From NCBI RefSeq assembly GCF_004010195.1, contig NC_057719.1:5651258-5700627 (forward strand): a stretch of DNA of 49,370 bases. The letters are read 5' to 3'. The DNA comes from Chiloscyllium plagiosum. Lineage: Eukaryota. The stretch's first letter is position 1. Every line of letters starts with the position of its first letter. Shown one piece after another: positions 321 to 49,370 of this stretch. The notes under the pieces were generated by a model. That model had not been told where the DNA came from, did no database searches, and saw only the letters and a list, made by a program, of their open reading frames with translations. The translations under genes and the position numbers were made by a program.

Positions 321-339
321 AAACGTATGTCATTCAGCT

Positions 340-432
340 TTAGAGTCTGGGGAAGGGTCACTGGATTAAATCTGATTACTGTCAACAGATGCTGCCAGAC
401 CTGCTGAGCTTTTTTTGCAATTTCTCTTTTTG
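340..432 (+). mobile_element. Penelope-like terminal-repeat fragment with a decayed hammerhead motif
   Basis: ctggggaagggtcactgga...gatgctgccagacctgctgagc resembles 4508-4590. Confidence 0.6.
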
Positions 433-2436: not shown

Positions 2437-2512
2437 CCTGTGTCGTATGGGCAGATCAGCAAAAAATATCGCTCACGATCGCCCAAAAGTCTAACGCAAA
2501 GTATAGTGCAGC

Positions 2513-3270: not shown

Positions 3271-3669
3271 CTGTTCATTCTGTTTGAGTATCTGAACATC
3301 TCATCAATGATTGAGCAAATCCTATTGGTTATTTCATCAGTGAATTAGGATAAATGAGTGGTTTGTAAACAGTGTTTTACAGTCCTTAAAACAAAAGGTT
3401 TTGAATGAAGCAATGCCAAGCTTGTGTTGTCACTGTTCAGAGGAGAATTCCCTCTTCAGTGGACAACAGAATCGTAGGGAGAATAAGTTGTGCACTTCTG
3501 CTTTTCAGCCTGGGTGGGTCCGATTAAACACCAGGGGCCTTTGGTTACCTATCTCTTAATGTAAGAAGTAAGGAGCAGGCCATTCAAGCCTGCAGTGCCA
3601 GTGACTAGCTCATTTGGGAGTGAGGGACTGACATTAAAAAAGGAAACATTATGGCATTCAAGCCCTGGT

Positions 3670-3999: not shown

Positions 4000-4640
4000 G
4001 GTGGTCTCCTCTACACTGGGGCAACAAAGTATAGACTGGGTAACTATTTCACAGAACACCTATATTTTGTCTGCAAAAAAGACCCTGAGCTTCCTGTTGC
4101 CTACCGCTTCAATACGCCACCCTGTTTCCCAGCCACCATCTCTGTCTCAGGCTTGCTGCAATGCTCCTGTGAAACTCAGTGCCAGCTGAAAGAACAGAAC
4201 TTCATTTTCCATGAAGGAACTGTACAGCTTTCTGGACTCCATATCGAGTTCAACAATGTTAGGGTTTGAAGCATCCTCTCCCATGTCCTTTTCCCAACAC
4301 CACACGTCAGGCCTTGTTATCACATGGTCTGCTATAACACACAGCTCATTGTTGGCCACTAATAGTCCCGGTTAGTAGCTGTTCATTCTCTCAGGCTGAT
4401 CCTCTGTCCAACTGTTCTCTCTCTTTGGACTCTATCTCCACCTATCATTCAATCCTTACCTCCTCCTCCCACTCTAACTTCTGAACAATATCCTAGGTGC
4501 CATCAGTCTGAGGAAGGGTCACTAGATCCGAAACATTAACTGTGACTTCTCTCCACAGGTGCTGTCTGACCTGCTGAGCTTTTCCAACAATTTCTGGGTT
4601 TTTTTATTTCTCAATCCGCAGTTTATTCGGTTTTTATTTT
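4000..4640 (+). mobile_element. Old Penelope-like 3' fragment (GIY-YIG remnant plus terminal repeat)
   Basis: ggtctcctctacactggggcaac (GLLY.G), gaacagaacttcattttcc (EQ.LIF), then a terminal repeat with a hammerhead motif. Confidence 0.8.
4504..4542 (+). ncRNA. Minimal hammerhead ribozyme motif, partly decayed
   Basis: CAGT-CTGAGGA-A-GGGTC-acta-GATCC-GAAA-CATTA-ACTG. Core boxes intact, 5-bp helix II with one G-U, CAGT/ACTG helix I. The ACGT palindrome has mutated to ACAT. Confidence 0.6.
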
Positions 4641-12263: not shown

Positions 12264-12458
<195 letters not shown>

Positions 12459-12589
12459 TAGAGCAAGGAAGGTGGAACATGTGTTTGGAGTTCTCATGTT
12501 AATTTATCCTGCCTATTTGACTTTAAGCTAAGTTTCCTTTCTACTCCCTGCACATATCCATTTCTATTCTCGGTCGTTACATACAAATA

Positions 12590-12775
12590 TGCCAGTTAGG
12601 AGCAGGAATAGGCCACTCGGCTTTTCGAGCCTCCTCCATCATTCAATAAGATCATGATTGATCTGTTTACATTGTTGTATTTCTTTGTAACCATTCACTC
12701 CCTTACATATCTAATTCTGATTTAAAGCTATCAAAGACTCTGTTTCCACCACCGTATTGAAGAAGAGTTATGCTC
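12590..12775 (-). mobile_element. CR1 3' end remnant
   Basis: aggagcaggaataggccactcggc..ccatcattcaataagatcatg is the reverse complement of a CR1 3' UTR like that at 21510-21590. Confidence 0.6.
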
Positions 12776-13914
12776 TCTACTTCAGGTTTCTGATACTTGT
12801 GAAATCATTCTGCTCTTAACTGGTGAAACTTTTCCAGTAAATCCAAAATTCATTTAATGACAATTTTTCTGTTCTAGTTTGTGATCACCAAAACCTGAAC
12901 AAGAATTCCTTGTTGCATTATTCAAGAACTGCCATATATAACCAAAACACCCAACTGGAAAAATCATAGGATAGTAATGGTTAGATGGAGGATATTCTGT
13001 ATCATTTTATATCAAGTATGTTTCTATGTAAGCCTTCCTGTGGAATGCATTCGCTTTCAACAACTGGAAAGTTGAGTTTATAAACAACTGTTAGAAACAC
13101 TTTGCCTTCAGACTTGCAGATTTTACGTAGTCTCACAGAATGGAAAATTACACAAATTCTACCTAGGTACTGTAAGCCTCTTCCAGTGAATATAGTTGTA
13201 TAATGCAGATGAGCAATATCTAGTGATGCAAGTCTCATGATTTAACTGGACAAAACTAAAGGGCTCCATTGTTAAATGTCCTATTCTACAAACCATTTCA
13301 TGATTTAACCTCAGGCCCTCTCTGCAGTTAACAATGATCATCAAAGTTTAAACTGTTCTATGTTTTCTTCTTTACTCTGCACTGACAACATGCCCAGCCT
13401 CCTTCTGCTCCGACTTCAAGAATCTGACTTTCTATAGGTTTATTCCCCATGACACCAAGTGCTCCTGCAACATTCCAGAAGCCCTCTATGTCTCCTCATC
13501 TGTCTCCACACATATAACAATTCCCTCATAGTATACCTCTTTGCCATTCCTCACCTTTAGTAAAATAATATACATAACTCTTCTCCCAAGCCTCTTTTTG
13601 ACAAGCAATGTCTCTTTACAAGGTGCCTGGAAACATGACAAGTATCTTTTTCCCAGTGTGATAATTACTGCCAAACAACCTCCCTGACACTGAAAATTAA
13701 CTATTGATAGGTGAAGAATCTCATTCCTGTAGGTTCTAATTGTTGCAGAGTATAAATATGTAAATTTGATTTATTTTTATTTTTCATCTATTTTTCTTTT
13801 CTCTCCTTTGTAACCAATTGTTCTTTTCCCCTTGTTTCCTCTTTCTTCACTTGATTCACATTGAATTCGCCCTTTTCAACTTACATTCCTGTTCCGTTGT
13901 TAACATTGGAGAAG

Positions 13915-14440
13915 ATAGTGGCCATAATGCCACTGGTCTAGTAATCCACAGATACAGGCTGTACTCTGATAACATGGGTTCAAATTCCATTGTGACAGCT
14001 GGTGAAATGTGAATTCAATAAATAGGAAATCTGGACTTGAAAGCTAGCCTCAGTGATGGTGACCATGAATTAGCATTTGGTTCACTTACAGTTCTTTGTG
14101 GTTTGATTTTTTTTCTTCTTGTTACAAGATGTGAATACAGGGGTGAGCACTTTGTTGCCCATCTCTAACTGTCCTTCAACTGAGGACCTTACTATGCTAT
14201 TTCCAAGGGCAGCTAAGAACCGGCTGTGTCAGTCTTGAGTCACATATAGACCAGACCAAGTAGGGATGACAGGTTTTCTTCCCTAACAGAAATGAGTGAA
14301 CTTAATCAGTTTTTACAACCCTCAGTGATATTTTCATGGCCACCGTTACTGAGGCTGGCTTTATTGACCAGCTGTCATGGTGGGAGCAATGGCCTTGGCC
14401 TTTGGATTACTCGCTCAGTGATGTTGTTGTATTGCCACTA
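13915..14440. mobile_element. Two oppositely oriented copies of the second SINE family (13915-14095 +, 14125-14440 -)
   Basis: The + copy has the head taatgccactggtctagtaatccaca..GGTTCAAATTCC. The - copy matches 5490-5830. Confidence 0.65.
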
Positions 14441-15889
14441 GTCCTTAACTGGTCTGTAATGTTGATTAGTTCCCATTTTCAGCAACTTCCCATGTTAAAA
14501 GTTTAAAAGCGTAAGTGCGGTGCAGTGGACATGTCCCTACGTCTGAGCCAGGAGGTCCAGGTTCAAATTCAACCTCCTGCTAAAGTGTGCAGTAACATAC
14601 CTGAACAGATTGATTTGAAAATATCTAAAACATAAGTGTGAAAAGGCAGGTTTAACTCACGGCAGATTCTGTCAGGTTCCCTCCTGAGGCAACATTGGCA
14701 GCAACAACAGTAATAATTTGTAGTTATACAGTGCTTTTAACACAGTAAAACTCTCAAAGGTGTTTCAGTGCCCCATCATTAGCTTTTGTTATTGATCAGT
14801 CACATTATCTGAGGCATTGAAAGTGGCAAATCTATTTTTACCCTGATTCTTTTTTAAATCTCCCTTTGCTTATTCACTTCTATTCTTGGATACTTTAGAT
14901 GAGCATTTTTAAAATTATGAGCAATGCTTTACATACATTATTTTAAATAAAGTGTTAAATTTAATTTCCCAACTGTCAGTCAAGTGCAGAACTGACCTGA
15001 ATTTTCTTGCTACAAATTGCCATTGCATAACTGTACTTCATTGCCATGAAAAGCTGCTTGCTGTATAGGGTGGTATCACACACTAATTATACACCAGAGA
15101 AATAAATTGTACCTTTGGTTCATAGTAACAAAGCATCATGTGAATTTTGGGATTTATTAATAGTCTGAAGGTCAGGGAGAATGATTTTCTTAACAGGTAA
15201 ATACATTAGCTTTGCTAATGAACTGTCACTTCCTGACTAGAATAACTATTTTTCTTTAATTGCATAGATTTATGTAGGAAACAACACAGAGGTATTGAAA
15301 GAGCTGTCTAATTGCCCTTATTATGTTAACCCACTGGAATGAGCATAGGTCATGTTGGCCACATACTCGACATTTGCACTTCATAGCATGGAACTTTAGT
15401 GCATATAGCTTGTTAAAATTGCATTGTGCATTCGTGCACACTAATTGTGGGAAGTTTTTTTGAAATCCACTTTGTCTGGTGTGGTGTAATTTCTTTACAT
15501 TTTGAATGCAGGCAGTGGAGCCCAAGGGAATGAGTTGTAAAGGCCACTCACTGTCTTGGCAGAGCTGCACCATGGCCGGGACATATACAGAGGGGATTGA
15601 ACTTACTCTATGGTATTGCATTGTATTTGCAGACAGTAATGTGACAAGACCATTAATAATAACTATTATTGTGGCAAGAGTGTTCCCAGAACAGAGTACA
15701 TTGTTGGAACTTTCCACTATATTAACATAGCTATGACATAAGGCTGACTAACAATTTTACTTTCTGACCCTTTGTCATTTACAGTAAAATTCTGCAGCTC
15801 TCTGACAATAAAATAAATTCTAGTATTTCTCTTGTTTGGGCTCATGTTGGGGATCTTTGATATAACACATGCTTTTTTTATTCTTAATT

Positions 15890-16100
15890 TTTTTACATGA
15901 TCTGGTTGTCATTGTCGTGGCCAATATTTGTTGCCCATCCCTAATTGCCCTTGAACTGAGTGGCTATTTCAGAATGCAGTTAAGAGTCACCCACATTGCT
16001 GTGGGTTCTGAGTCACATATAGGCTGGCAGATTTCCTTACTTAAAGAGCAGTAGTGAACCAGAAGGGTTTTTCTAATAATCATTGGTCACCATAACCTAA
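15890..16100 (-). mobile_element. Second SINE family, 3' part
   Basis: ttgcccatccctaattgcccttgaactgagtggc..cccacattgctgtggg..ggcagatttcc. Confidence 0.7.
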
Positions 16101-16641
16101 TTCTCGAAAGCGAATGTTGAGAATGGAGTTCTCAAGTGAGCTTCCCAGTGGATTTTGTTTGGGTGTGTGGCCTTCCGTAAAAGTATAATTAGAGCACCAA
16201 TGAGCGACAAAGTGTATGTTAAAGCATTGAGAAATGCCATGTGACAAGAGAGATAGTGCGAAATAATTGGCAATGTTCAACTGCCTTTGTTTTGGCAAAT
16301 TAAAATTATCAAGTTCACTTCTTGAGTATAAATCATATTTCTTCAACTTAATCTGATTTACATTTAGTTTTCTGAGGTGAACAGATGCTTGCCATATGAT
16401 TTTGCCGCAGAAAAAAAACTGATGTAATTGGTATTTTTAGTTTGCTGTGTCAGCTTTTAGAAAGACAAAGATTGATACTCATTTGCAGATAATAATCTAA
16501 TCTAATGAAACATTTTACAGGAACACGCTATAAAAAGGGTATCATGGTTCAGTGTTTCACAGAACATTTTGTAGCTACAAGTGATGATATTTATTAATAA
16601 CCCTGTTTCCTATTTTCCCCACCCCAACTCTTATTCTGTAG

Positions 16642-16857
<216 letters not shown>

Positions 16858-17044
16858 TGATATACCAGGGATACCTGGTGCAAGTTGCTTATTATTCCCT
16901 ACATATAAAATAGATCCTAATTAAAACATCAGCTCTTGGAAGATTACAGCACAAAATTAAATGATTAGCAATTTAGCCTATCACACTATCAATTCTAAGA
17001 TTGAATTATCTATATTCCCTTTGCTTTTCTTATCTATTAAGGAA

Positions 17045-18718
17045 CATTAAAAACATTCAGCCCATTGAGCCTGCTCTACCATTCAGTTAGACATGACTCA
17101 TAATCCAATTCAATTCCATTTTTCCACAATATCTCCATATCTCTTGATGTCATTGGGCTCCAGAAATCTGTTTTTTTATGTTGAATATGCTTAAGGATTT
17201 CCACAGCCCTTGGGGTAGAGAATTCCAAACATTCCCATCTTTCTGAGTAAGTAGGTTCCTCCATATGGCCTATTCCTTACCCTGAGATTATGATATTGGC
17301 TTGATTCACCAGCCAGGGGAAACATCTGTATTCACTTTGTCATGCCCTGTAAGAGTTTAATAAGTTTCAGAAATGTCACCCTTATTCTTCAAAAGTCTAG
17401 GGAATACAGACTCAGTTCCCTCAATCTGTCCTCTTAAAATAATCCCAACATCCTAATAATTAACTTTGGGAACCTCTGTCACACTCTCTGGCAAGTATAT
17501 TTGTCCTGAGGTAAGGGAATCAAAACAGTACACAGTAGTCCTGGTGAGATCTCACTAAGGCTGTACACAAATATTTAGGCACATGGACGTTAGTACAATG
17601 AAGGGTATGTAGGCTATTCTGATCTTAGAGCAGGATAGAAGGCCAACACAACATCGAGGGCTGAAGGGCCTGTACTGTTCTATGTTATATGACATCTTTA
17701 CTCCTGTATTCAACTCCCCTTGCAAAGAAGACCGATGTGTCACTTGCCTTCTTAATTACTTGCTGCATCTGCATGTTAACTCATGAGCCTGGTCACCCAG
17801 GTCCCTTTGGTTACCTGCATTTCCCAACCTCTTACTTTTATACCTTTCCGTCTTTTTCTACCAAAGTGAATGACTTCACATTTATTCACTTTATATTCTA
17901 TGTAGCATGTTCTAGCCCATTCACTTAGCTTGCCCAATTTCTGTTTAAGCTTTCTTGTATTTTCTTCACAATTTACTTACAACCTCCAACCAGTTTGAGT
18001 TGTCAGCAAATTTGGGAATATTACTATTGGATCCTACACCCAAATTGTTTCTATTGAATGTGAACAATTATGGATCCAGTGCTGATCCTTGCAGTATCCC
18101 ACTATTAACAGCCTACCTTGCTGAGTATGACGTTTATTTCTACTCTTTATCTATTAACTAATTCTCAATCCATACTAGTATATTTCCCCAAATCCCATGC
18201 ACTTTAAATTATTTACTAACCTCCTGTGAGGGACCTTATCAAAAGCCTTTAGAAAATTCAAATATACCACATCCACTGTCCTCTTTTATCAATGGTACAT
18301 TAACATCCTCAAAAAAATCAAGTTTGTCAAACATAATTTCTTTTTCATAAATCCATGATGATGTTTTAATTTGCCATTCTTTTCCAAATGTCCATTTGTG
18401 ACATCCTATATAATAGATTCCTGTATTTTCTCTACTATCGATGTCAAACTAAATGCCTTTAACTTTCCATTCTCCATCTTCTTCCCTTCTCAAATATTGG
18501 AGTTACTTTAGTTACTTTTCCAGAATCTATAGAATTTTGAAAGATAACCACTAATACATCCAGTATCTCCCTAGCCTCTTTGACACTCTGATGTGAAGTT
18601 AAGGGAATTTGTCAACCTTCAATCCATTAACTTCTCAAGTAAAATTCTTTTGAGTATTTCAGTTTCACCAGTTCTGTGGTTGCCTCATATTTCTGGAAGA
18701 TTTTCTGTATCTTTTTTT
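17045..18718 (-). mobile_element. Old CR1 LINE (3' part), interrupted by younger CR1s
   Basis: Reverse-complement CR1 hallmarks: ttgtcagcaaatttg (KFADN), accttatcaaaagcctt (KA.DKVP), tttgtcaaacataattt. A short + strand CR1 3' end is inserted at about 17570-17690. Confidence 0.75.
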
Positions 18719-18722
18719 AAGA

Positions 18723-21607
18723 AGTGGTTGGGGAAGTTTTAAACTAATATGCTAGGGGGCTGGGAACCGATGTAAGGAGTCAGTGAAGGGGGAAGCATGT
18801 TCAAATTTAAAAATAGAAAAGGGAATAAGAAAAGTGAAAGGCAGAGAAACCAAGGACAAAATTCCAACCGGGCTATTGAGGAAAGTATTAGAAGCAAGGC
18901 AAACAATGTTAAAAAGACAAGCTTAAAGGCTATTTGCCTTAATCCGTGGAGCATTTGCAATAAAATGGATGAACTAATCACACAGATAGTTGTAAACAGG
19001 TACGATATAATTGGGATTACGGAGACATGGCTTCAGGGTGACCAGGGATGGGAACTGAATATCCCAGGGTATTCAGTATTTTGGAACGACAGACAAAAAA
19101 GGAAAAGGTGATGGAAGGGCATTGCTAGTTGAAGTGATATTATTCACAAGGACTGACAATGTGGAGTCTATATGGGTAGAGTTGAGAAATACCAAAGGGC
19201 AAAATATGTTTGTAGGTGTCATGTATAGACCCCCAAACTGCACTGTTGATGTTGGGCATGGCATTGAACATAGAAATTAGAGATGCATACGATAAGGGAA
19301 TAACAGTGATCATGGGTGATTCTAATCTACACACAGATGGGGCAAATCAAATTAGCCACAATGCCACAGAGGAGGAATTCCTGGAGTATATATGGGATGG
19401 TTTTCTTGACCAGTATGTGGAGGAACCAAATGGAGAGCAGGCCAACTTAGACTGGGTACTGTGTATTGAAAAGGGAATCATTACCAATCCAGCTGTGCGT
19501 GACCCCTTGGGGATGAGCGACCATTACAATATTTTTTATCAAGGTGGAGAGTGAGATAGGTGAAGACTGGGGTGCTGAATCTTAATAAAGGAAACTATGA
19601 AGATGTGAGGCGTGAGCTGGCCTTGATAGATTGGGGAGAATTACTTAAAGGGATGACAGTGGGTAGACAATGGCAACATTCAAGGAATATATGCGAACAC
19701 TGAAATAACTGTTTATTCCTGTCCGGCACAAGACTATGGCTTGCAAAGGAAATTAGAGAGACGATCGATCCGAGGAAGAAGCACACAGATTGGCCAAGTA
19801 AAATAATAGGTCTGAGGATTGGGAGTAGATTCGAATTCAGCAAAGAAGGAGCGAAGGATTGAATAAGAAGGGAAAAATACAGTATGAAAGTAAACTTGCA
19901 TGGAACATAAAGACTAATACGAAGAGTTTCTTTAGGTAATTGAAGAAAAAGAGATTGATGAAGACAAATGTAAGTCCTCTACAGATATAACAGAACAAAA
20001 GAAATAGCTGAGCAACTGAATATAAACTATGGTTCTGTCTTTACAAAAGAGGACACAAATCAGAAATATTGGGAGATGCAAGATTTAGTGAGAGGAAAGA
20101 ACTGAGGGAGATCAACATTAGTAGAGAAATGGTGCTGGGAAAATTGAGGGGATTGAAGGTGGGTAAATCCCCAGTGCCTGAGAATCTACATCCCATAATA
20201 TGCAAGGAAGTGACTCCAGAAATGCAGGATGCATCGGTGGTCATCGTCCAGGATTCTATGGACTGTGGTATGGCTCCTGCAGATTGGAGGGTAGCTAATG
20301 TCACTCCAATATTCAAAAAGGGAGATAGAGAGAAACCAGGAAATTATGGACCAGTAAGTCTAATGTCAGTAGTGGAGAAAATTTTCGAATCCATTATCAA
20401 GGACTTTAGACAGGAGTGGCAAGATCAGATAGAATCAGCATGGATTTATGAAGGGGAAATCATGCTTGACAAATCTGTTGGAATTCTATTAAGATGTAAC
20501 TAGTAGAGTTGACAAGGGAGGGCCAGTTGACGTGATGTATTTGGACTTTCAGAAAGTGTTGGACACAGTCTCGCGTTAAGAGATTACTGTGCATGATTAA
20601 AGTGCATGGGATTGGAGAAGTGTATTGAGATGGATAAGAAACTGGTTGACAGAGAAGAAACAATGAATTAATGGATCCTTTTCAAATTGACAGGCAGTAA
20701 CCAGTGGGGGTGCCACAGGAATCGGTGCTAGAACCCCAGCTATTCACAATACATATTAATGATTTGAATGAGTGAACAAAATGTAACATCGTAAAGTTTG
20801 CAGATGATACCAAGTTGGGTGGGAGGGTCAACTGTGATGAGGATCTTCCAGCATGATCTGAACAGGTTGGGTGAGTGGGCAAATCAATGGCAGATACAGT
20901 ATAATTTGGATAAATGTAAGGTTATTCATTTTGGATGCAAAAACAAGAAGGCAGATTACTGCCTGAATGCCTGTGAATTGGGGAGGGGAGTGTGCAGTGG
21001 GGCCTGGGTGTCCTTGTGCATCAGTCGCTGAGGGTAAGCATGAAGGCAAATGGTATATTGGCCTTCATTGCAAGAGGTTTCGAGTACAGGAGCAAGGATG
21101 TGTTGTTGCAGTTAAACAGGGCCTTGGTGAAGCCACACCGAGAATATTGTGTGCAGTTTTGGCCTCCTTTTCTGAGGAAGGATGCTCTTGCTCTCGAGGG
21201 AGTGCAGCCAAGGTTTACCAGGCTGATTCCATGGATGGCGGGACTGATTTATGAGGAGCGATTACTAGGTTAGACTAGACAGGGTAGATGCAGGGGGAAT
21301 GTTCCATTGGTGGGTGCATCCAGAACCAGGTGCCACAGTCTGAAGATTTGAGGAGACATTTCTTCACTCAAAGAATTGTGAGCCTGTGGAATTTATTACC
21401 ACAGGAAGTAGTTGATGTCAAAGCACTGGGTATATCAAGAGAAGATTAGAGGAGCACTTGATGTGAATGGGATCAAATGTTATGGGGAGAAAGCAGGATT
21501 AGGCTATTGAGTTGGATGATCAGCTATGATTGTGATGAATGGCGGAGCAGACTCAAAGCACCAAATGGTTTCCTCCTGCTCCTATCTTCTATATTTTTAT
21601 GTTTCTA
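18723..21607 (+). mobile_element. CR1 LINE, near-complete ORF2 (APE endonuclease plus RT), frameshifted
   Basis: LKAICLNPWSICNKMDEL..YDIIGITETWL (APE); VIMGDSN; LDWVL; SDH; KSPVPENLHP; DWRVANVTPIFKKG; KFADDTKLGG; EYCVQFW; 3' UTR ending ctcctgctcctatcttctat. Confidence 0.93.
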
Positions 21608-21609
21608 AG

Positions 21610-22090
21610 ATAGGCATAAAGTGCTCCCTGTGCTCTATTATAGGTCTCTTCTCCCCACGGGTAACGGGTCAATGTTTGCCCTAATGTTTTCCTTTTAATA
21701 TACGTAAAGAAGCTTTTACAGTTTGCCTTTATGTTCCTTGCTAGTTTGTATATATGTTCTTTTTTCCCTTTTTAAACTGGTTTCTTGATTTTTCTGTGTT
21801 CTAAATTGCTCTCAATTCTTTAGCTTAACACTTTTTCTGGCATCCTTATAAGCCACTTCATGTTATCTAATGCAATGTTTGACCTTTTTCAATAACTAGG
21901 GTTGATTTTATTTTGTGTGTTCGTAATTTCAAGAAGTATGTATCTGTTCTGGACCACGTAGTATTTTTTAAAATGTAGCTATTGTCTGCCTATTGTCAAT
22001 TTTTTGTGTATTTTCCCATCCATCATGATCAACTTGCCCCCATATTTTCATACTTTATTTCTTTAGATTGAAGACCCTACTTTGATCTTA
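21610..22090 (-). mobile_element. Probable continuation of the old minus-strand CR1
   Basis: agaagcttttacagtttgcctttatgttccttgctagtttg is the reverse complement of KLARNIKANCKSF, the same CR1 segment seen on + at 19890-19930. Confidence 0.65.
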
Positions 22091-22417
22091 AGGATGGATT
22101 TTTTTTTCTTCACCTTTCTTTGTAGTAGTGTATTCTATGTCTGAGCAAATTAATAATTTGGTGAGAGAATAATGAGAAACTCCATTCGACAAAGTTGATG
22201 TTGGGGAAGCGGGGGATCATTGTATTTGGAGGAAAGCTGACTGTCTTAAATGAAAGCATTTAATATTTGCTCTGCAGCCTATTTTTAAAAGGTTGTGTTC
22301 TGCAATAAAATGTTATGGACCTAAGGACCTAAGTACATATGCAGTGACTAAGCAAAGATTTCTCCTTTCAGAGTTTAACCTCAGTGCATTTTCATTTCTG
22401 ACTGTTGTTACCTCTGA

Positions 22418-22645
<228 letters not shown>

Positions 22646-23115
22646 TGAAGTTAGATTTTAATCTGAGATTTGAATATGAAATTGTAAATTCATTTTCTAA
22701 AATATCACTGAATATTGATATTGCATCAAAGATCGGTGAGAATGTCCTCAGGTTTATTCTAGCTTCAAATAGTTAAAGCTTCATTGCAGTAAATGGAGCT
22801 TCCCTAGATGGCTTCTCATGGACAAATCACTCTGACCATACTCAAGCCTGTCGACTTTACCTTTGAGATGTGAAAGAGAGCTCATTGGGCTTCAATAAGT
22901 GGCACTCATTTTGGGAGTTGGAGAAAGAAAGTAAGAAATGTATTTCAGAGATTTTTTTAAATTTCTAATTGTTGAGTGCCAAACAGAATTCTATTTGATT
23001 CGGCAAGTTTAGGTTATTTGTTAAATATTTGTGAATTTGGGAACATTGTTGTGTTATGTCTCACAGCGATATACTTTTAAGAAATATTCTGAGGGTGTCA
23101 TGGCATATGACCTCA

Positions 23116-23350
23116 TGGTTGAGAGTGTGGTGCTGGAAAAGCACAGTAGGTCAGGCAGCATCTGAGGAGCAGGAGAATCAACATTTCGGGCAAAAGCCCT
23201 TCGTCAGGCATAAGCCCCTAATTCCTGATGAAGGGCTTATCCCCAAAACGTCGATTCTCCTGCTCCTTGGATGCTGCCTGACCTGCTGTGCTTTTCCAGC
23301 ACCACACTCTCAACTCTGATCTCCAGCATCTGCAGTCATCACTTTCTCCT
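23116..23350. mobile_element. Palindromic PLE-derived mini-element with 11-bp TSD
   Basis: 91-bp arms at 23118-23208 and 23224-23314 are reverse complements. Flanked by ATATGACCTCA at 23105-23115 and 23351-23361. Confidence 0.9.
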
Positions 23351-23620
23351 ATATGACCTCAAGGAATGAAGCTCTCAGGCTCCATCTGTCCTTTTGCAGC
23401 ATGCTTTTGCAAGCTGAGGGAAGCAAGTCCTGTGATTACAGTGAACATGCGTAAATACCAGGATACGTAATAAAAGTTCCTTCAATTCTTTAGTAATACA
23501 TAGCCCACATTTTGCCTTTGTGTTACAGGAGCTAACGTAAATATAACTGTGTGATAATGATAGATCATCAGTATATCTCACCACTATATCATGTGGTACC
23601 ATATAGTGATTTGCTTGTAA

Positions 23621-23881
<261 letters not shown>

Positions 23882-24039
23882 TAATTCCTTTAACAAACAA
23901 TAACTCTACCAAGGTTTTTGCAAAAGGGAAATACATAGACAATATTAGTAGAATGAAGGAATTGACTGCTAGTGCATAAGTTATTGCAGAAACAGATATG
24001 AAGAGGTTTTAACAGAGGGCATATGTTCTCTGACATACA

Positions 24040-24425
24040 TTCTCATCCTTGTTCATCTTCCTAATTTCCCTTGTTCCCCCCCTGCCCTATCTCTGTAACC
24101 ACACAAGAACGCTGCCTTCCTCCAATTCTTGCACATTCCCAATTTCTTTCGACTTATACACCAGCCTCCTCAATCCCAGCACAAGCTGCCCTCTATATTG
24201 GCAGTGTGCCTTCAGTTGTTGCTGCCCTAATACTGAAATTTCTTCCATAAACCTCTTGGCTTTCTTCCTCCTTTAAGATTCGCCTTAAAGACTTCACCTT
24301 TGACCACGCTTTTGGTCACTTGACCGAGTCTTTTTTATGTAGTCTGTGTCAAATTATTTTCCCCATAAAGCACCTTGTGATGTTTTACTTTATTAAAGGC
24401 ATTACACAAATGCAAGTTGTTGTTG
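24040..24425 (+). mobile_element. L2-like LINE 3' end
   Basis: ccttaaagacttcacctttgaccacgctttt..aagcaccttgtgatgttttac..aaatgcaagttgttgttg, an L2-type 3' terminus with a (TTG)n tail. Confidence 0.65.
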
Positions 24426-24493
24426 CTTTACTTGTTTTTGATGTGACTACTGCACATTCACTCTCTCTCTCAATTAATTTGATCTCTGCTTAG

Positions 24494-24733
24494 GCCTTCA
24501 ACAAATGCAAGAGGGAAGGCTTTTGCCTTCAGAATGTGGACAAGGCACCTCTGGCGAAAAGACGCAAGATGAAGAAAACCAGCACCAGTACTGAAACACG
24601 GAGCAGTTCTAGTGAAAGTTCCCACTCCTCCTCCTCTCAATCCCATGGCAAAACTACACCAACCACAAAACTACAGCCCAACAACCCAACAGACAGCAAT
24701 AATCCAGACAGTATCTTTCAATTCTCCGATTAA
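24494..24733 (+). CDS. RPS6KA5: RPS6KA5 terminal coding exon (MAPK docking/NLS, Ser-rich tail, stop)
   Basis: ttag|GCC..GAT TAA, 240 bp. AFNKCKREGFCLQNVDKAPLAKRRKMKKTSTSTETRSSSSESSHSSSSQSHGKTTPTTKLQPNNPTDSNNPDSIFQFSD*. This tail is MSK1-type rather than MSK2-type. Confidence 0.97.
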   Translation, partial: AFNKCKREGFCLQNVDKAPLAKRRKMKKTSTSTETRSSSSESSHSSSSQSHGKTTPTTKLQPNNPTDSNNPDSIFQFSD

Positions 24734-26761: not shown

Positions 26762-26958
26762 GCAAATTACTGCAGATACTAGAACTGTGCAATATGAACA
26801 GCACATGCTAGCAAAACTAAACGGGTCCGTCAACATCTGTGGAGAGAGAAACGTAGTGTTAACATTTTGGGCTGATTACTTTGCCACAGACCCATGTTTC
26901 TCTCTGAAACGATTCTGCCTGACCCACTATGTCTTTCTAGCATCTTCTATATTTATTA
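26762..26958. mobile_element. Old fold-back PLE terminal-repeat remnant
   Basis: atgctagcaaaac..gggtc..catctgtggagagagaaac is loosely reverse-complementary to gtttctctct..gacc..tttctagcat. It starts with the actgcagat motif seen at 2270. Confidence 0.55.
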
Positions 26959-29574: not shown

Positions 29575-30028
29575 ATGCCATTCACATATAAATCCATAAA
29601 AAGTTGACATCATTTTGCTGGAGCAACCCAAAACTAAAATCCATTGTTCCATTCTGTCCACTGCAAACCATGCCCACCACCTCCAACCCTCTGAGGGTAT
29701 CTGACCCTCCTTGGAAAATTAATTCCTTTTCCCTTCAAAGTTTCAAGAGCCTATTCCTTACTACCATAATTTACATGCTCCTCCAGCCCTCAGCATAATT
29801 TCTCCTTACACCTCACCTCTTTCAATTAGCAATTATGTTTATATTGTTAGCCCCTCAAGAAATTTGTGGAGGTATTGCATGGTGAAGAACTTTTTTTTAA
29901 ATGCAGGGAGTGGCAAAGACCTGGAATTTGCTACCCATGAGGATGGTGAAAGCAGAGACTATAAGTGATTCCTGTAGGAATTTGAATGGATATTTGAGGG
30001 GAATAAATTTGCCAAGCTTCTATGGTAG

Positions 30029-30106
30029 TCGAGAGTGTGGTTCTGGAAAAGCACAGTAGGTCAGGCAGCATCTGAGAAGCAGGAGAATCGACGTTTCAGG
30101 CATAAG
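30029..30106 (-). mobile_element. Short PLE terminal-repeat fragment inserted in a CR1 3' remnant (29870-30200)
   Basis: Matches the left arm at 23121-23195. Flanked by GCTTCTATGGTAG (30016-30028) and GCTTCTGTGGTAG (30107-30119). Confidence 0.8.
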
Positions 30107-35859: not shown

Positions 35860-36378
35860 TAAAAACAAAGAACTGCAGGAAATCTGAAACAAAAACAAAA
35901 ATTGCTGGAGAAACTCAGCAGGCCTGGCAGTATCTGTGGAGAGAAAGCAAAGTTTTGGGTCCAGTGACCCTTCTCCAGAATTGATTGTAGCTAGTAAAAG
36001 GTGGCATTTTTTGCACCATCAGTGGCTGTAAATGGGTTGGCTGGTGATGAAAGCAGCATTACATGGGTTGCTTTCATCACAGCCAACCCGTTTTCCCCCA
36101 CCGATGGTCGTCATTAGCAGCTATTCTTTCTCCCCGGCTCATTATTACCCATTCCTTTGCCCAATTGCTATTCTCTCTCACTGGGAAATCTATTGGTCAC
36201 TTCCTTCCTCTTCCCCTCTCCCACCCTCCTCACCCCAGGTCTTCAGCATAAAAACCACACTTACCTCACTAAAATCAGATCTGAAGAAGGGCCACTGGAC
36301 CAGCAACAGTAACTCTGTTTTCTGCGCACAGAAACTGCTAGATCTGCTGAGGTTCTCCAGCAGTTTGTTTTTGATACA
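35860..36378. mobile_element. Inverted pair of PLE terminal repeats with spacer
   Basis: 35890-36005 (ttgctggagaaactcagcagg..gggtccagtgacccttctccag) is reverse-complementary to 36255-36375 (ctgaagaagggccactggacc..ctgctgaggttctccagca). Confidence 0.75.
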
Positions 36379-36399
36379 ATCTGTGGACCTGTTTTAGGT

Positions 36400-36940
36400 C
36401 TACAGGATAAGATTGGACTTTTCACAAAGAATTGGTGAGACCACATCTTAAATACTGTGCACAGTTTTGGTTACTTTGTTTGAAAAAAGATATAATTGTG
36501 TAAGATGCAATTCAGAGAAGGTTCACAACTTATTTTTCGGAGGAAGATTCGATGGGTTAAGCGTTTACTCATTGGAATTTCAAACAATGAGAGGTGAGCT
36601 TGTTGGAAATTGCAACATCTTGAGGCTATCGGAAAAACATTTTTACTTGTTGGGGTGACTAGAACTCAGAATAAGAGGTCTTCCTTTGAAGATGAAGATA
36701 ATTTATTTTATCTCTGAAATTTGTTAGTCTGTGAAACTCCCTTCCCCAGGAAGCAGTGGAGGCTGGTTCATTGAATTTGTACAAGATAGAGCTAGGTAGA
36801 TTTTGATAGACAAGGGAATCAAAGATTATTTGCAGCAAACTGGAAAGTGGAGTTGAGACCATAAAACCAGTCATGGTTTTATTGAATGGTGTAGGTGCAA
36901 AGAGGCCTAAAAGCTTGCTCCTCCTTCTCTGTCATATGTC
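36400..36940 (+). mobile_element. Degenerate CR1 3' portion
   Basis: ttggtgagaccacatcttaaatactgtgcacagttttgg (LVRPHLKYCAQFW), YSLEFQTMRGEL, and CR1 3' UTR. Confidence 0.75.
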
Positions 36941-38110: not shown

Positions 38111-38989
38111 CAGTCATTGTGTCAGATTGCTGAAGGCAGCTGTTGCAACTCCATTGCTCAGCAAAGATATGCTCTGAAGCTGCAGGTCTGGCAGCCTCTG
38201 TAAGGCGGGAGAAATAGGGAGGTATTTATACGAGGCTGAGAGAAGGTGAGTCATGGCTCCAGAAGCAAAGGTAGCAATAAAGAGGTGATAATGACAGTAC
38301 ATAGAGAGATTATAGGGAGATTAGGAGCTGTGAGTGACCAAGGCTGAAGCCAGTGCTGTGTGACAAAATATGGGGGGGAATGGGTGAAGTAGAAGCAAAA
38401 TGGAAAACGGGAGAAGGGTAGCAAAGGGGGAAGAGGAGAGGAAAAAGGTGATAAGAGAGTGGGGAGTGAGAGAAAGACAATCAAGAAATATGAGGTCCAG
38501 AACGGTGAAAAAAAAAATTTAAAAACGGTAAATGAAATAAAATTACGGAGCAGAATGAAAACAGAGGGGTCGAGATGGGATAATCACCTGAAGTTGTTGA
38601 ATTCAGTGTTGAGACCGGCAGGCTGTAACGTGCCGAGTCGGAAGATGAGATGCTGTTCCTCCAGTCTGCGTTGAGCTTCACTGGAACATTGCAGCAGGCC
38701 AAGGACAGACATGTGGGCATGCGAGCAGGATTGGGTGGTGAAATGGCAAGCCACAGGAAGGTCTGGGACCTGATTGCTTACAGACCGAAGGTGCTCAGCA
38801 AAGCGATCACCCAGTCGGTGTTTTGTCTCTACGATATAGAGGAGACCACATTGGGAGCAACGAATGCAATAGACCAAATTGAAAGAGGTACAAGTGAAAC
38901 GCTGCTTAATCTGAAATGAGTGTTTAGGGCCTTGGATGGTGGGCATGGAAGAGGTAAAGGGGCAGGTGCTTCACCTTCTACGATTGCAT

Positions 38990-39071
38990 GGGAAGGTGCC
39001 ATGTGTGATGGGAGAGGAGTTAGGTGTGATGGGAAGGTGCCATGTGTGATGGGAGAGGAGTTAGGTGTGAT
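38990..39071. repeat. Tandem duplication, 2 x 41 bp, inside PLE A
   Basis: gggaaggtgccatgtgtgatgggagaggagttaggtgtgat occurs twice and frameshifts the ORF. Confidence 0.92.
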
Positions 39072-39187
39072 GGAGGAGTGGGCTAGGTTGTCCTGGAGGG
39101 AACAATCTCTGCGGAATGCAGACACGGGGAGGGAAGGGAAGATGTGTTTAGTGGAGGGCGGTGGAGGGCACCGTCGACCACGTCGGG

Positions 39188-39356
39188 GAACTGGTCCTCC
39201 TGGCTTGAAGAAGGAGGCCATCTGTGTTGTACGTATTTTGAACTGGTCCTCCTGGCTTAAAGAAGGAGGCCATCTGTGTTGTACGTATTTTGAACTGGTC
39301 CTCCTGGCTTGAAGAAGGAGGCCATCTGTGTTGTACGTATTTTGAACTGGTCCTCC
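39188..39356 (-). repeat. Tandem repeat, 3.25 x 52 bp, derived from PLE coding sequence
   Basis: Unit gaactggtcctcctggcttgaagaaggaggccatctgtgttgtacgtatttt starts at 39188, 39240, 39292 and 39344 (partial). One substitution in copy 2. Confidence 0.95.
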
Positions 39357-40443
39357 AACACAGATGGCCTCCTTCTTCAAGGACCGCAATTTCCCCCCCG
39401 GCGTGGTCAACGGTGCCCTCCACCGCATCTCCTCCACTTCCCGCTCCTCCGCCCTTGAGCCCCGCCCCTCCAACCGCCACCAGGACAGAACCCCACTGGT
39501 CCTCACCTACCACCCCACCAATCTCCATGTACAGCGCATCATCCGCCGTCACTTCCGCCACCTCCAAACAGACCCCAGCACCAAGGATATATTTCCCTCC
39601 CCTCCCCTATCAGCTTTCCGTAGAGACCACTCCCTCCGCGACTCCCTTGTCAGATCCACACCCCCCACCGACCCAACCACCACTCCCGGCACCTTCCCTT
39701 GCAACCGCAGGAGGTGCAACACTTGCGCCCACACCTCCCCCCTCACTTCTCTCCAAAGCCCCAAAGGAAACTTCCATATCCGCCACAGATTCACCTGCAC
39801 CTCCACCCACATCATCTACTGCATCCGCTGCAGCCGGTGTGGCCTCCTCTATATTGGGGAGACAGGCCGCCTACTTGCGGAGCGATTCAGAGAGCACCTC
39901 TGGGCCACCCGGACGAACCAACCCAACCAACCTGTGGCACAGCATTTCAACTCCCCCTCCCACTCCACCGAGGATATGCAGGTCATTGGACTCATCCACC
40001 GCCAAACCACAACAACCCGACGGTCGGAGGAGGAGCGTCTTATCTTCCGACTGGGAACCCTCCAACCACAGGGGATGAACATGGACTTCACCAGTTTCTT
40101 CATCCCCCCTCCCCCCACATTGTCTCAGCCGGATCCCTCCAGCCCGGCACCGCCTTCCTGACCTGCAGTCTTCTTCTTGACCTCTCCGCCTCCATCCTAC
40201 TCCGACCTATCACCCTCACCTTGACCTCTTTCCACCTATCACATTTCCAACGCCCCTCCTCCAAGTCCCTCCTCCCTACCTTTTATCTTCTCCTGCTGAA
40301 CACTCTCTGCTCATTCCTGAAGAAGGGCCTGTGCCCGAAACGTCGAATCTCCTGTTCCCTGGATGCTGCCTGACCTGCTGTGCTGTTCCAGCAATAAAGT
40401 TTCAACTTTGATCTCCAGCATCTGCAGACCTCACTTTCTCCTC
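39356..40443 (+). mobile_element. Penelope-like element B, young, 5'-truncated, nested in A
   Basis: Uninterrupted 265-aa frame at 39364-40161: RT thumb, CNRRRCNTCAH linker, IIYCIRCSRCGLLYIGET..RFREH..E..GMN (GIY-YIG). CpG-rich. Terminal repeat contains a hammerhead and AATAAA at 40393-40398. Confidence 0.95.
40313..40348 (+). ncRNA. Minimal type I hammerhead ribozyme (PLE type)
   Basis: ATTC-CTGAAGA-A-GGGC-ctgt-GCCC-GAAA-CGTC-GAAT. Helix I ATTC/GAAT, core CUGANGA and GAAA, 4-bp helix II, palindromic ACGU in place of helix III, GUC cleavage triplet ending at 40344. Confidence 0.8.
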
Positions 40444-42215
40444 GAGAACAAGAGGGACCCAATCCTTGTTCTGGGAGGGGAGGGAGGGGGTGAGGGTCGT
40501 GGCCCGGGAGATGGACCGCACGCTGTTGAGAGCCCTGTCAACAACTGTAGGTGGGAAGCCACGGTTGGAGAAGAAGGAGCATATATTAAGAGCACTACTT
40601 TGGAAAGTGGCCTCATCGGAACAAATGTGGCGGAGGCCGAAGGAGCTGAGAGAAAGGGATAGAGTCCTTACAGAACGTAGGGTGAGAAGAGCTGTAGTCC
40701 AGATAGCTGTGGGAGTCAGTGGGCTTGTAATGGATATTAGTGGATAGACTGTTGCCGGAAATGGAGACAGAAAGGTCAAAGAAAGGAAGGCAAGTGTCGG
40801 CGATGGACCAGGTGAAGGTGATGGAGGGATGGAAACTGGAAGCGAAGTTTATGAATTCTTCCAAGTCAGGACGAGAGCATGAAGCTGCACCGAAATAGTC
40901 ATCAATGTACCGATAAAGCAGTTGTGGGAAGGGACCCGGGTAGGCCTGGAACAAGAAATGTTCCACACACCCCATGAAAAGGCAGGCATAGCTAGGACCC
41001 ATGCGGGTACCCATTGCTACACCTTTGATTTGGAGAAAATGGGATGAGTTGAAGGAGAAGTTGAGAGAGAGAACAAGTTCAGCCAGGCGGAAGAGAGTGG
41101 TGGTGGATGGAGATTGTTCGGACCTCTTTTTGAGAAAGAAGCGAAGAGCTTTCAAGCCGTCTTGGTGTGGGATGGAGGTGTAAAGAGATTGCACATCCAT
41201 GGTGAACAGCATCTCATCTTCCGACTAGGCACGTTACAGCCTGCCGGTCTCAACATTGAATTCAACAACTTCAGATGATTTTCCCCATCTCAATCCCTCT
41301 GTTTTCATTCTGCTCTGTAATTTTATTTTATTTACCTTTTTTTAATTTTTTTTTCACTGTTCTGTACCTCATATTTCTTGATTGTCTCTCTTTCTCTTGC
41401 TCCCCACTCTCTTATCACCTTTTTCCTCTCCTCTTCCCCCTTTGCTACTCTTCTCCCCTGTTTTCCATTTTGCTTCTGCTTCACCCATCCTCCCCATTCC
41501 CCACATATTTTGTCACACAGCACTGGCTTCAGCCTTGGTCATTCACAGCTCCCAATCTCCCTATAATCTCTCTATGCACTGTCATTATCACCTCTTTATT
41601 GCTACCTTTGCTTCTGGAGCCATGACTCACCTTCTCTCAGCCTCGTATAAATACCTCCCTATTTCTCCCCTTTTTTTAGCTTTGACAAAGGGTCAGTTAG
41701 ACTCAAAATGTCAGCTCTTTTCTCTCCTTACAGAGGCTGCCAGACCGGCTGAGATTTTCCAGCATTTTCTCTTTTGGTTTCAGTTTCCAGCATCTGCAGT
41801 AATTTGCTTTTATCCAGAGGACACTGGCTTTTTTAGGGAAGGTCCACTAAACTGACTGTCAATTGTGAGTGTAGGGAGCCTTCTCCATGGACAGAAGTCC
41901 TGCCTGTTAAGATCTGCTAGTCAAACAGAGTCCGACACCTCCATTTGACAGCAGTGCCACTCAAGAGGCTGCTGCTGGTAGTACACACGAGCAATGCCTT
42001 GTACTTAGGAGTGACCCAAGCACGTGAGTGGTGTCAACAGTCAGAGTAGAGGTTTGGTTCTTAGGTTTGGTTCTTAGGTTCTCCTTTTCCTGATCCCTTG
42101 ATCAGGAGCAGACTCTCACAATGAGGGATCTCCTCCCCTCCCAGAGCCCCTCCAGCCACAGGGTTAATTTAATAACAGTGGTGGAGGGATGAGGGTAAAG
42201 ACCTCAATTCGTGGT

Positions 42216-47564: not shown

Positions 47565-47950
47565 TTATATCATGCTTATTTCCGATATGTAAATGACACA
47601 TTTGCGATATTTAAATCTGATATTCTTCACACCTTAAACTCCATTCTGTGCTCAATTTACTATTGAAATAGAGCAGTCAAATTAGCTCCCTTTTTTCAAT
47701 GTATTAGTTGAGAATTCTGAGAGTGGTTGAGAATTCTTAACCACTCTCTACCAAAAGCCTTCTTTGACTGATCAGTTTGTATGTTGGAATTCCGATAGTC
47801 ATGGTAAATCTTATTGGCAACCTCATAAATAGGGCCCTAGCTGTCTCCCTCTCTATGGGAACTTGAGCTGAGATAGAGCATTTCCAAACTACCCTGTGTG
47901 ATAGTGAATGCCCTGACCAAATCATCACTCAGCATGTATCTGGAAAACTC
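47565..47950 (+). mobile_element. Degenerate Penelope-like RT fragment of a different PLE family
   Basis: YFRYVNDTFAIF, FTIEIEQSN*LPFFNVLV, TTLYQKP, NLIGNLINRALAV. Confidence 0.7.
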
Positions 47951-47954
47951 AAGA

Positions 47955-49370
47955 AAGGGCCTACACTCGTGCATCCTCCCCAGGTCAGCCGGGTCGGTGA
48001 AAGTGAGAAGCACGTCGTCGGTGTAGGCCGAGAGGACCACCCCTGTGCCCGCGCCGCGCAGAACCAGCCCGAACAACCTCCTCCACAAGAGGCGCAGGAA
48101 AGGCTCCATGCACAGGGAATACAGCTGGCCGGTCAGGGGGCAGCCTTGATGCACTCCTCTCCCGAAGCGAAGGGGCGCCGTCAGGGGCCCGTTAACTTTA
48201 ACCAAACACTCTGCGGCGGCGTACAAAAGTCGGATCCGGGCAACGAGCGTAGACGTTCACCAAGTGAAGCACCGCGCCCCCGGCTTAGCCTCCGGTGCCG
48301 GGGCCTGTGGTATTGACTTCGGGGGAGGGGGAATGTGTGCGGCAGCACCACCATCGGCGCGGGCTGGACGGCCTTCTGGGTGGGGCAGTTTTTCCTTATG
48401 TGCCCCACCTCGCGGCACAGGTCGCACCGCACGCCGTCCGCCGTCCAGAAGACGCGGTAGGCCACGCCCTCGTGGAGGACGGTAAAATTGCCCTCGGTGA
48501 CCTCCTCCCGGGCCAGGCAAATAAACACCTGGCGCCGGAAGGAGTAGATGTGTCTTAGGGCAGGGTCCTTCAGACCGAGCAGGAACGGCTGGACACCCGA
48601 CCGGATCTCCCCCAGGGTGGTGAGGTGGGGGAGAAGGAGCTCGCTGGCAATGAAGGGCGGGACATTAGAGATCACGACCCTCTGGGCCGTAACCTCCAAA
48701 GGGTCGATGGGCAAATGTGTCCCGCCCACGGTGAGCCCCCTCTCCACGGCCAGGTGGACCGCCTGCTCGGTCTTCAGGAAAAATACGGCCTTCCCGTACA
48801 TCCGGGCCACAGCGACGATGGCCAGTGGGCCGACCACACTAGCCATGGCCTTGCTGCAGGCCTCGATGGTCATGTTGGGGTGGGGATAGGCCTTGACCCC
48901 TAGGCGTTTGGTCAGGTGCCTGAAGGGGCTTGCAGTCGAGACCGGGGTTGTGACAGCCGAGCCTAAGGCAGCGGCTACCCCGGCGTAGGTGCGGCTGGGC
49001 CCGGCGACCTTCGGGCTCGCCATATTCTGCTGCTGGATATTATTGTGCCCCAGGCAGCGGTGGAGGTGGGCCCCTGGTAGCAGCAGTGGTGGAGGTTGTG
49101 GGGAGGGGCCCAAGGCGAGTCACCCAAGGCAAGTCCCAGGCAGCGACAGTGGAGACCTGCCTCAGGCAACAGCAGTGGTGGAAGCAGGCCTCGGGCGAGT
49201 CCAAGGTAAGCCCTCGGTCGCAGTGGTGGGGGCAGACCTGTTGGGGAGAGTCCCCGAGGCAAGTCCCAGGCAGCCCCAAAGTCGAGTCCCAGGCAGTAGT
49301 GGTGGAGATGGGCCCAAGGCGAGTCCCACGCAGCAGCGGTGGAGGCAGGCCTCAGGCGAGTCTACGGTAG
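47955..49370 (-). mobile_element. Tx1-like (L1 clade) non-LTR retrotransposon, internally deleted
   Basis: ORF1 probably from ATG at 49023 (MASPK..ARMYGKAVFFLKTE..RVVISNVPPFI..CDLCREVGHIRKNC zinc knuckle) joined near 48250-48300 to the RT core (RGVHQGCPLTGQLY..EPFL..SAYTDD). GC/CpG-rich. Confidence 0.88.
49050..49370. repeat. Degenerate GC-rich tandem array upstream of Tx1-like ORF1
   Basis: Recurring ggcagcagtggtggagg and ggccc/tc-aaggcgagtcc blocks at variable ~25-60 bp spacing. Runs off the window edge. Confidence 0.75.

What the first reader, a model, noticed from the sequence alone, without database searches (positions are those of the whole stretch)
40313..40348. Apparently intact minimal hammerhead ribozyme in a young Penelope terminal repeat
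Seen: ATTC CTGAAGA A GGGC ctgt GCCC GAAA CGTC GAAT. This gives both catalytic boxes, paired helices I and II, a GUC triplet, and a loop-less palindromic ACGU where helix III should be. It lies about 45 nt upstream of AATAAA. Established: PLEs carry minimal hammerheads with a vestigial, palindromic helix III that are thought to cleave as dimers. Inference: this copy could self-cleave after 40344 when two motifs pair. It has an extra A between the CUGANGA box and helix II.
Basis: partly seen in the sequence, partly recalled or inferred. Interest (0 to 1): 0.7.

Follow-up and report, generated by a model that had tools for sequence, protein, structure and literature searches.

The report
Penelope retroelement minimal hammerhead, lone copy
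The motif is a real, undamaged copy of the small self-cutting RNA that Penelope-like jumping genes are already known to carry in their end repeats; here it sits alone in a truncated copy in a shark-like genome and is most likely an inert passenger.

Summary
Observation confirmed base for base. The motif is the only hit of the published min-HHR descriptor in the 49-kb window (chance 0.007 per window). It lies in the 3' repeat of a 5'-truncated Penelope-like element (Neptune/Nematis-type endonuclease; best hits carpet sharks), nested in an older one. It meets every testable sequence feature of the minimal hammerheads of Cervera and De la Pena 2014. The 'extra A' is part of that consensus, not an oddity. 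Against activity here: no intact partner in the window; a double hammerhead is not favoured over two monomers; helix I barely forms in context; RNA reads of the family come from both strands and show no end pile-up at 40344/40345 (weak test). About 69% of DNA depth and 75% of RNA reads carry a sister form with a U-U mismatch in helix I, and most RNA reads lack AATAAA, so neither feature is family-wide. Relative youth suffices to explain intactness. I found no shark example in print, but one key paper was unreadable. The scan has reported this motif many times on other DNA of this and other genomes. New member of a known kind; low interest.

The parts
40313..40348 (+). Type I minimal hammerhead (min-HHR); predicted cut between 40344 and 40345
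   Evidence: Sequence; sole descriptor hit in the window
40313..40316 (+). Helix I, 5' strand; pairs with 40345-40348 (4 bp)
   Evidence: Pairing probability 0.31-0.50 in the 36-mer and about 0.01 in 196-546 nt of context
40317..40324 (+). CUGANGA box (N7 = A) plus the class-typical extra nucleotide (A, 40324)
   Evidence: consensus in PMC4209133 Fig. S3
40325..40336 (+). Helix II (4 bp, G10.1-C11.1) with 4-nt loop 40329-40332
   Evidence: Pairing probability 0.84-1.0 in all contexts. Loop positions 40329 and 40331 vary in 73% and 49% of RNA reads
40337..40344 (+). GAAA box, loop-less palindrome ACGU (40340-40343) in place of helix III, and GUC triplet ending at C17 = 40344
40345..40348 (+). 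Helix I, 3' strand; 40347 is A here and T in the more numerous sister form
   Evidence: T in 894 of 1193 RNA reads (X21), 69% of contig depth in X2, 30% in X16
39346..40161 (+). 3' part of the PLE ORF (RT thumb, CX4CX2C linker, GIY-YIG endonuclease with CCHH); 5'-truncated, RT core absent
   Evidence: motif definitions
40162..40312 (+). Pyrimidine-rich stretch of the 3' repeat between the ORF stop and the hammerhead
40349..40445 (+). Tail of the element; family copies end at about 40440-40443. Holds a predicted hairpin (40376-40380 with 40389-40393) inside an outer helix (40360-40368 with 40416-40424)
   Evidence: Loose ends at 40440-40443 in all three runs with reads, mostly with unrelated flanks. 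Folds; energies not unusual
40393..40398 (+). AATAAA, present in this subfamily only; no poly(A) at the element's end
39150..39356 (-). Inverted 5' junction piece of the same element with three 52-nt tandem units
   Evidence: (D7, I25)
40444..41215 (-). Older PLE that was interrupted: RT and thumb, frameshift near 40636
38587..39155 (-). Older PLE, continued: linker and endonuclease
41678..41716 (+). Decayed hammerhead of the older element's family (U3, A8, G12>A; different helix I and II); nearest same-strand motif, not a usable partner

Best explanation
The motif is the standard minimal hammerhead of a Penelope-like element's terminal repeat (pLTR), copied in with the 3' 1.1 kb of the element. 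Shown: the anatomy, the PLE context, the high copy number, and the lack of an intact partner in the window. From the literature: such motifs do not cut as monomers; two copies pair through ACGU to supply helix III and swap helix I strands, cutting slowly after the GUC, probably helped by the element's protein. In a source element the two motifs sit in tandem repeats on one transcript and process the multimeric RNA. Inferred: this copy has lost the 5' repeat and RT and has only one motif, so it is an inert passenger. It is intact because it is recent, not because it is selected. My odds: member of the class 0.97; cuts after 40344 in vitro when helix III is supplied about 0.7; cut appreciably in vivo at this locus about 0.1.
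For: Sole descriptor hit, 7 of 1000 shuffles. Same layout as published rows, for example Adineta(2), Nematostella(2) and Acropora Neptune. Lies about 150 nt after a GIY-YIG ORF stop, like the 3'-only motifs of truncated PLEs in Table S1. A second PLE family in the window has the same core with compensatory helix changes (C-G vs U-A at the core-proximal pair of helix I in 3 vs 5 rows; C-G vs U-A at the fourth pair of helix II in 3 vs 4 rows; 82% of cells paired against 28-42% when slid). 57,730 contig pieces of one DNA run lie on 39700-40520. Of 10 window copies aligned, only this one keeps core, palindrome and both helices. Double hammerhead -13.1 against -14.2 kcal/mol for two monomers. Monomer inactive and dimer weak in S. 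mansoni; protein-assisted and dispensable for insertion in Anolis. About one RNA read lies beyond the right junction (depth 0.04/0.79 at 40456-40483).
Against: No cleavage assay exists for this sequence. The covariation count rests on 10 related, partly decayed copies, three of them with non-homologous 5' ends; RNAalifold did not recover the hammerhead helices. Core conservation across the family could not be read directly: no core position is among the 40 variant rows shown, but 158 rows were hidden. The RNA run is a poly(A) single-cell library sampled at about 2%, so it is a weak test of both locus expression and cut ends. Partners beyond the window were not searched, because no genome is held.
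Confidence: 0.8

Rival explanations
1. The site is cut in vivo by pairing in trans with other family RNAs, or with the help of PLE protein. The 5' half of most family copies is complementary to this subfamily's 3' helix I strand.
For: Family RNA is plentiful (2,982 reads in 1,943 million letters). The 5' strand is shared with the copy at 23218. The Anolis hammerhead cuts once its protein is added.
Against: Only 4+4 bp hold two strands together, and the dimer is not favoured. No end pile-up was seen (table 6). About one read crosses the locus junction.
Confidence: 0.1
2. In this shark family the motif is kept mainly as a structural or protein-binding landmark (template start, RT stop or switch), and cleavage is incidental.
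For: The more numerous sister form has U-U at the third pair of helix I. In X2 the only T>A and T>G places are 40304 and 40291, so no compensating change at 40314 reaches 4%; the copy at 23218 shows the mismatch directly. Short window copies begin within or just before the motif, upstream of the cut site. Catalytic mutants still insert in Anolis.
Against: Both catalytic boxes, the cleavage triplet and the palindrome persist across two families with different helices and across phyla. A 2-bp helix I is known in D. virilis, whose extended form cleaved weakly. A bulged 4-bp register is possible for the sister form (inference). Local-alignment clipping could hide a change at 40314.
Confidence: 0.08
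3. The host has co-opted the motif with the AATAAA to end read-through transcripts from the kinase gene upstream.
For: Same strand as an RPS6KA5/MSK1-like gene whose stop codon lies at 24731-24733, 15.6 kb upstream.
Against: One of very many copies, nested in another element; no locus-specific reads; AATAAA is a subfamily trait.
Confidence: 0.02
4. Chance look-alike.
For: No Rfam hammerhead hit; fold energy is ordinary.
Against: 0.007 expected per window, at the position where PLEs are known to carry it.
Confidence: 0.005

Closest known systems
[quoted passage not shown]
   Same: Type I topology, CUGANGAH box with extra nucleotide, G10.1-C11.1, GAAA, palindromic 15.2-16.2 with no loop 3, short helix I, 3'-only motif in 5'-truncated copies, opposite-strand pairs nearby.
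   Different: Host is a shark; no cartilaginous fish is in Table S1 or among the Fig. S3 rows I read. Helix II (4 bp) is at the short end of the range.
Hammerhead of the Anolis Poseidon element PAc (PMC11167929)
   Same: Stems I and II only. The element's 3' end lies a similar distance after the cut site (98-101 nt here; 85-92 nt by my subtraction from their numbers). No RNA-seq ends at the cut site.
   Different: PAc is Poseidon clade with the start codon at stem II. This element has the CX2-5CxxC linker of Neptune/Nematis and no ATG in the motif. Protein assistance was not tested here.
Non-LTR retrozymes (bioRxiv 10.64898/2026.07.22.740005; PMC7229834 seen as listing only)
   Same: Type I hammerheads related to PLE pLTRs; reported in one chondrichthyan genome.
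   Different: Retrozymes are non-coding tandem repeats with a motif in each unit; this is a single motif behind an endonuclease ORF.
Canonical hammerheads (Rfam families; CChMVd plus-strand hammerhead)
   Same: Same catalytic core. The extra A after A9 occurs in CChMVd, where it moderately lowers the trans-cleavage rate (PMC3705267, passage).
   Different: No stable helix III, and no Rfam hit.

Membership tests
Metazoan PLE min-HHR | Matches the published descriptor (stem I 3-7 bp, CUGANGA(N), stem II 3-7 bp, GAAANNUH) | tested here: met
   descriptor
Metazoan PLE min-HHR | Extra nucleotide (H) between positions 9 and 10.1 | tested here: met
   A40324
Metazoan PLE min-HHR | G10.1-C11.1 pair | tested here: met
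   G40325-C40336
Metazoan PLE min-HHR | Palindromic 15.2-16.2, helix III absent | tested here: met
   ACGT at 40340-40343
Metazoan PLE min-HHR | Lies in the terminal repeat of a PLE | tested here: met
Metazoan PLE min-HHR | Covariation of helices among families | tested here: inconclusive
   Compensatory changes between two window families, but n = 10 related rows, and the third pair of helix I is mismatched in the majority form
Metazoan PLE min-HHR | Self-cleavage as a dimer or with protein help | not testable with these tools
   Only indirect: no end pile-up in a poorly suited library; dimer energy
Canonical (monomer-active) hammerhead | Stable helix III; Rfam model match | tested here: not met
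Neptune/Nematis EN+ PLE | CX2-5CxxC linker before a C-terminal GIY-YIG with CCHH | tested here: met
   C-x4-C-x2-C, then CxxC inside the GIY-YIG core and two His, in the ORF; definition
Neptune/Nematis EN+ PLE | RT phylogeny separating Neptune from Nematis | not tested
   RT core absent in this copy; no reference set at hand
Autonomous PLE copy | Full RT and two flanking pLTRs with hammerheads | tested here: not met
   Homology starts at residue 555 of P0020; single descriptor hit
Non-LTR retrozyme | Non-coding tandem units, each with a hammerhead | tested here: not met
   Single motif behind an ORF; no tandem of it in the window

The most novel reading that the evidence does not exclude
Sharks carry so many PLE hammerheads with one shared ACGU palindrome that motifs from separate insertions can complement each other inside host pre-mRNAs or in trans. 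The perfect-helix subfamily (this copy) is then the cleavable substrate for the far more abundant mismatched subfamily. Intact sense-strand copies would be a genome-wide, transposon-protein-dependent load of RNA cutting, visible as a depletion of intact sense copies in introns.
Probability: 0.07. Interest if true: 0.6.

Novelty: new member of a known kind. Interest (0 to 1): 0.12.

Why it matters
As a single locus it matters little: it is one clean copy of a class described in 2014. Its use is practical. It is a short, undamaged natural example of the perfect-helix subfamily that can be assayed beside the mismatched sister form. That comparison bears on the open question of whether PLE hammerheads are kept for cutting, since in vitro they are slow, protein-dependent and dispensable for insertion.

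Tried and rejected
Own-genome search: no genome held, so there is no genome-wide copy census. Rfam: no hammerhead. Tail-motif scans: 0 loci in viral contigs, 7 in metagenomes, 3 in prokaryote genomes; all 10 match only 22-27 nt and are chance hits. Endonuclease relatives in viral contigs: none confirmed. Reading subfamily variation from spurious translations of the motif: 0 hits among 4 candidates and 1 unrelated repeat protein. No RNA holder was listed (not evidence). Run X22 laid 0 reads (no test). Extra A as a novelty: rejected. AATAAA as part of a cleave-and-polyadenylate unit: rejected. Downstream tail structure as a firm finding: not established (z -0.43 to -1.64 for 6 of 6 tails; no compensatory change in the inner hairpin). 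U3-A8 variant at 41678: cannot be told from decay, because G8>A and G12>A both sit where a CpG could have been (inference). Lunse et al. 2017 (PMC5785218) is not held; I know it only from the citation and summary in PMC6765202. Its lists and the closed bioRxiv supplements could contain shark examples. A look-up by sequence in the scan's notes found nothing.

Full report
OBSERVATION. AATAAA starts at 40393. I re-coded the descriptor printed in Fig. S7 of PMC4209133. It hits this site alone on both strands of the 49,370 bases, and 7 of 1000 shuffles gave any hit. The two boxes without pairing are not significant. The fold energy is ordinary (z -0.81). Rfam found no hammerhead at E<=10 in 39800-40900; I infer that its models need helix III.

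CONTEXT. The motif lies about 150 nt after the stop of a 271-codon open frame (39346-40161). This frame holds an RT thumb, a C-x4-C-x2-C linker and a GIY-YIG endonuclease (Pfam E 1.8e-4, 22.2 bits against a cut-off of 22.6). Among 20 hits from 1,864 longer candidates, the best are Chiloscyllium (72%) and Stegostoma (61%) proteins. The linker marks Neptune or Nematis PLEs (passages of bioRxiv 2021.04.23.441226); I did not separate the two. The copy is 5'-truncated: homology to P0020 begins at residue 555. It has an inverted 5' piece with three 52-nt tandem units. It interrupts an older, frameshifted PLE on the minus strand, whose reading stops at about 40444 and resumes near 39155. Family copies end at about 40440-40443, mostly with unrelated flanks (loose ends). 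An RPS6KA5/MSK1-like gene ends 15.6 kb upstream on the same strand.

YOUTH. Supported in relative terms only. CpG o/e is 0.60 against 0.31 for the window. All three CpGs of the motif survive, while most other copies lost some. The frame is open and the element is nested. Among the 40 variant rows shown (158 hidden), three in the ORF region are private to this copy (97-100% of X2 depth differs). Youth alone can explain an unbroken core (inference).

FAMILY EVIDENCE. No genome is held, so I used the window and one lay of four runs on 39700-40520. X2 (DNA contigs) laid 57,730 pieces, X16 14,201, X21 (single-cell poly(A) RNA, about 2% read) 2,982 reads, and X22 none. These numbers show a very abundant family but are not copy numbers. 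Depth rises about four-fold at the motif's 5' edge. Within the motif, the rows shown are loop II (40329, 40331) and 40347. No core position is among them, but the hidden rows leave core conservation unmeasured. At 40347, T replaces A in 894 of 1193 RNA reads, 69% of X2 depth and 30% of X16 depth. The only T>A and T>G places in X2 are 40304 and 40291, so no pairing partner appears at 40314 at 4% or more, though alignment clipping could hide one. The copy at 23218 shows the U-U form directly. So the perfect helix I is a subfamily trait, and the mismatched form amplified more in this species. AATAAA is also subfamily-specific: 524 of 724 RNA reads carry C at 40395, although only 2% of X2 depth does, probably because contigs of the other subfamily break off at 40393-40394. 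RNA reads lie on both strands. Table 6 lists no place where many molecules begin or end, and about one read lies beyond the right junction. This library is a weak test.

I aligned 10 of the 12 tail copies found, leaving out those at 26911 and 38198, which lack a recognisable hammerhead. They fall into two families with the same core and different helices. On my named structure 82% of cells pair, against 28-42% when slid, and 7 of 22 pairs show a two-sided change. The rows are few and related, three have non-homologous 5' ends, and RNAalifold recovered only a downstream 5-bp hairpin. This is modest support. Only the 40313 copy keeps core, palindrome and both helices. Those at 23222(-) and 4497 keep the scored core but lost the palindrome and fail the descriptor. 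The extra nucleotide is A in all 8 copies that keep that part.

MECHANISM. Cervera and De la Pena 2014 (PMC4209133; I read main-text parts 1-2 of 4 and the supplementary PDF as text) define this class. They list the extra nucleotide, G10.1-C11.1 and the palindrome as conserved. Their monomer was inactive; dimers and trimers cut weakly. In Anolis (PMC11167929; passages and the second half of the main text) the motif cut only with the element's protein, was dispensable for insertion, and left no RNA-seq ends. In Xenopus retrozyme dimers 1 of 9 cut (bioRxiv 2026.07.22.740005; parts 1-3 of 5). An extra A moderately slows a viroid hammerhead (PMC3705267, passage). For this sequence, helix II is stable (p 0.84-1.0), helix I falls to about 0.01 in context, and the double hammerhead (-13.1 kcal/mol) is not favoured over two monomers (-14.2). 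It needs a tethered partner or a chaperone. The nearest same-strand motifs, at 41678 and 23218, are both broken at G12. I conclude that the motif works in source elements, where two repeats share a transcript, and is a passenger here. Cleavage itself is inferred, not shown.

NOVELTY. The kind is known. No cartilaginous fish is in Table S1 or the Fig. S3 rows. Searches for Penelope + shark + ribozyme (2 papers, listings only), hammerhead ribozyme + elasmobranch + retrotransposon (0) and a wider one (46 papers, 20 listings seen) showed no paper on shark PLE hammerheads. The 2026 preprint reports hammerhead-bearing tandem repeats in one chondrichthyan; its supplements are closed. Lunse et al. 2017 could not be read (cited in the review passages). 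So 'first in sharks' is not established. The scan's own notes hold many reports of this motif in this genome and others (103 of 187 notes fit the look-up). They are unchecked and add no support; they agree with the reading I had recorded before looking.

VERDICT. Real motif, correct class, ordinary locus. New member of a known kind; interest 0.12. The boldest reading left open is complementation between separate insertions (probability 0.07).

Noticed in passing
window 41678-41716 (+): Hammerhead of the second PLE family with a UUGACAA box (U3-A8, a published variant) and a self-complementary helix I, but G12>A and a lost palindrome; true variant or CpG decay cannot be told.
   Followed up: partly
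window 23113-23350 and 2253-2440: Two head-to-head inverted pairs of the same tail, with junctions in or just before the hammerhead; the copy at 30027-30106 (-) starts inside helix II. All start upstream of the cut site, which fits uncut RNA as template.
   Followed up: partly
window 40360-40424 and matching tails: A 5-bp hairpin is shared by both PLE families (90% of cells paired), with an enclosing 9-bp helix where tails are complete. It lies just upstream of the element's 3' end and is a candidate protein or RT-start signal. Fold energies are not unusual and the inner hairpin shows no compensatory change.
   Followed up: partly
window 38207-41790: The older PLE has inverted 3' repeats (90-96% in the longest arms) and lacks about 25 codons of linker at the site where the younger PLE inserted in the opposite direction.
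   Followed up: partly
window 39188-39356: Three near-perfect 52-nt tandem units at the 5' inversion junction, suggesting repeated template switching.
   Followed up: no
window 12264-24733 (+): Exons of an RPS6KA5/MSK1-like kinase; the inverted hammerhead pair at 23113-23350 lies between two of its exons.
   Followed up: partly
window 338-460, 4497-4640, 35860-35992 (-), 36272-36400: Four more decayed hammerhead-headed tails of the second family.
   Followed up: partly
window 2504-3299 (-): Another PLE fragment (RT, gap of N, endonuclease), 82% identical to P0001 over 149 residues.
   Followed up: no
window 47837-49370 (-): GC-rich retroelement piece with a 312-codon open frame and an RT fragment (Pfam RVT_1, E 9.6e-7); resembles a Tx1/L1-type element (recalled, not tested).
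   Followed up: no
P0002, last 20 residues: The C-terminus of this Stegostoma protein reads like a translation through a hammerhead of the same layout, hinting at the motif in another shark.
   Followed up: no
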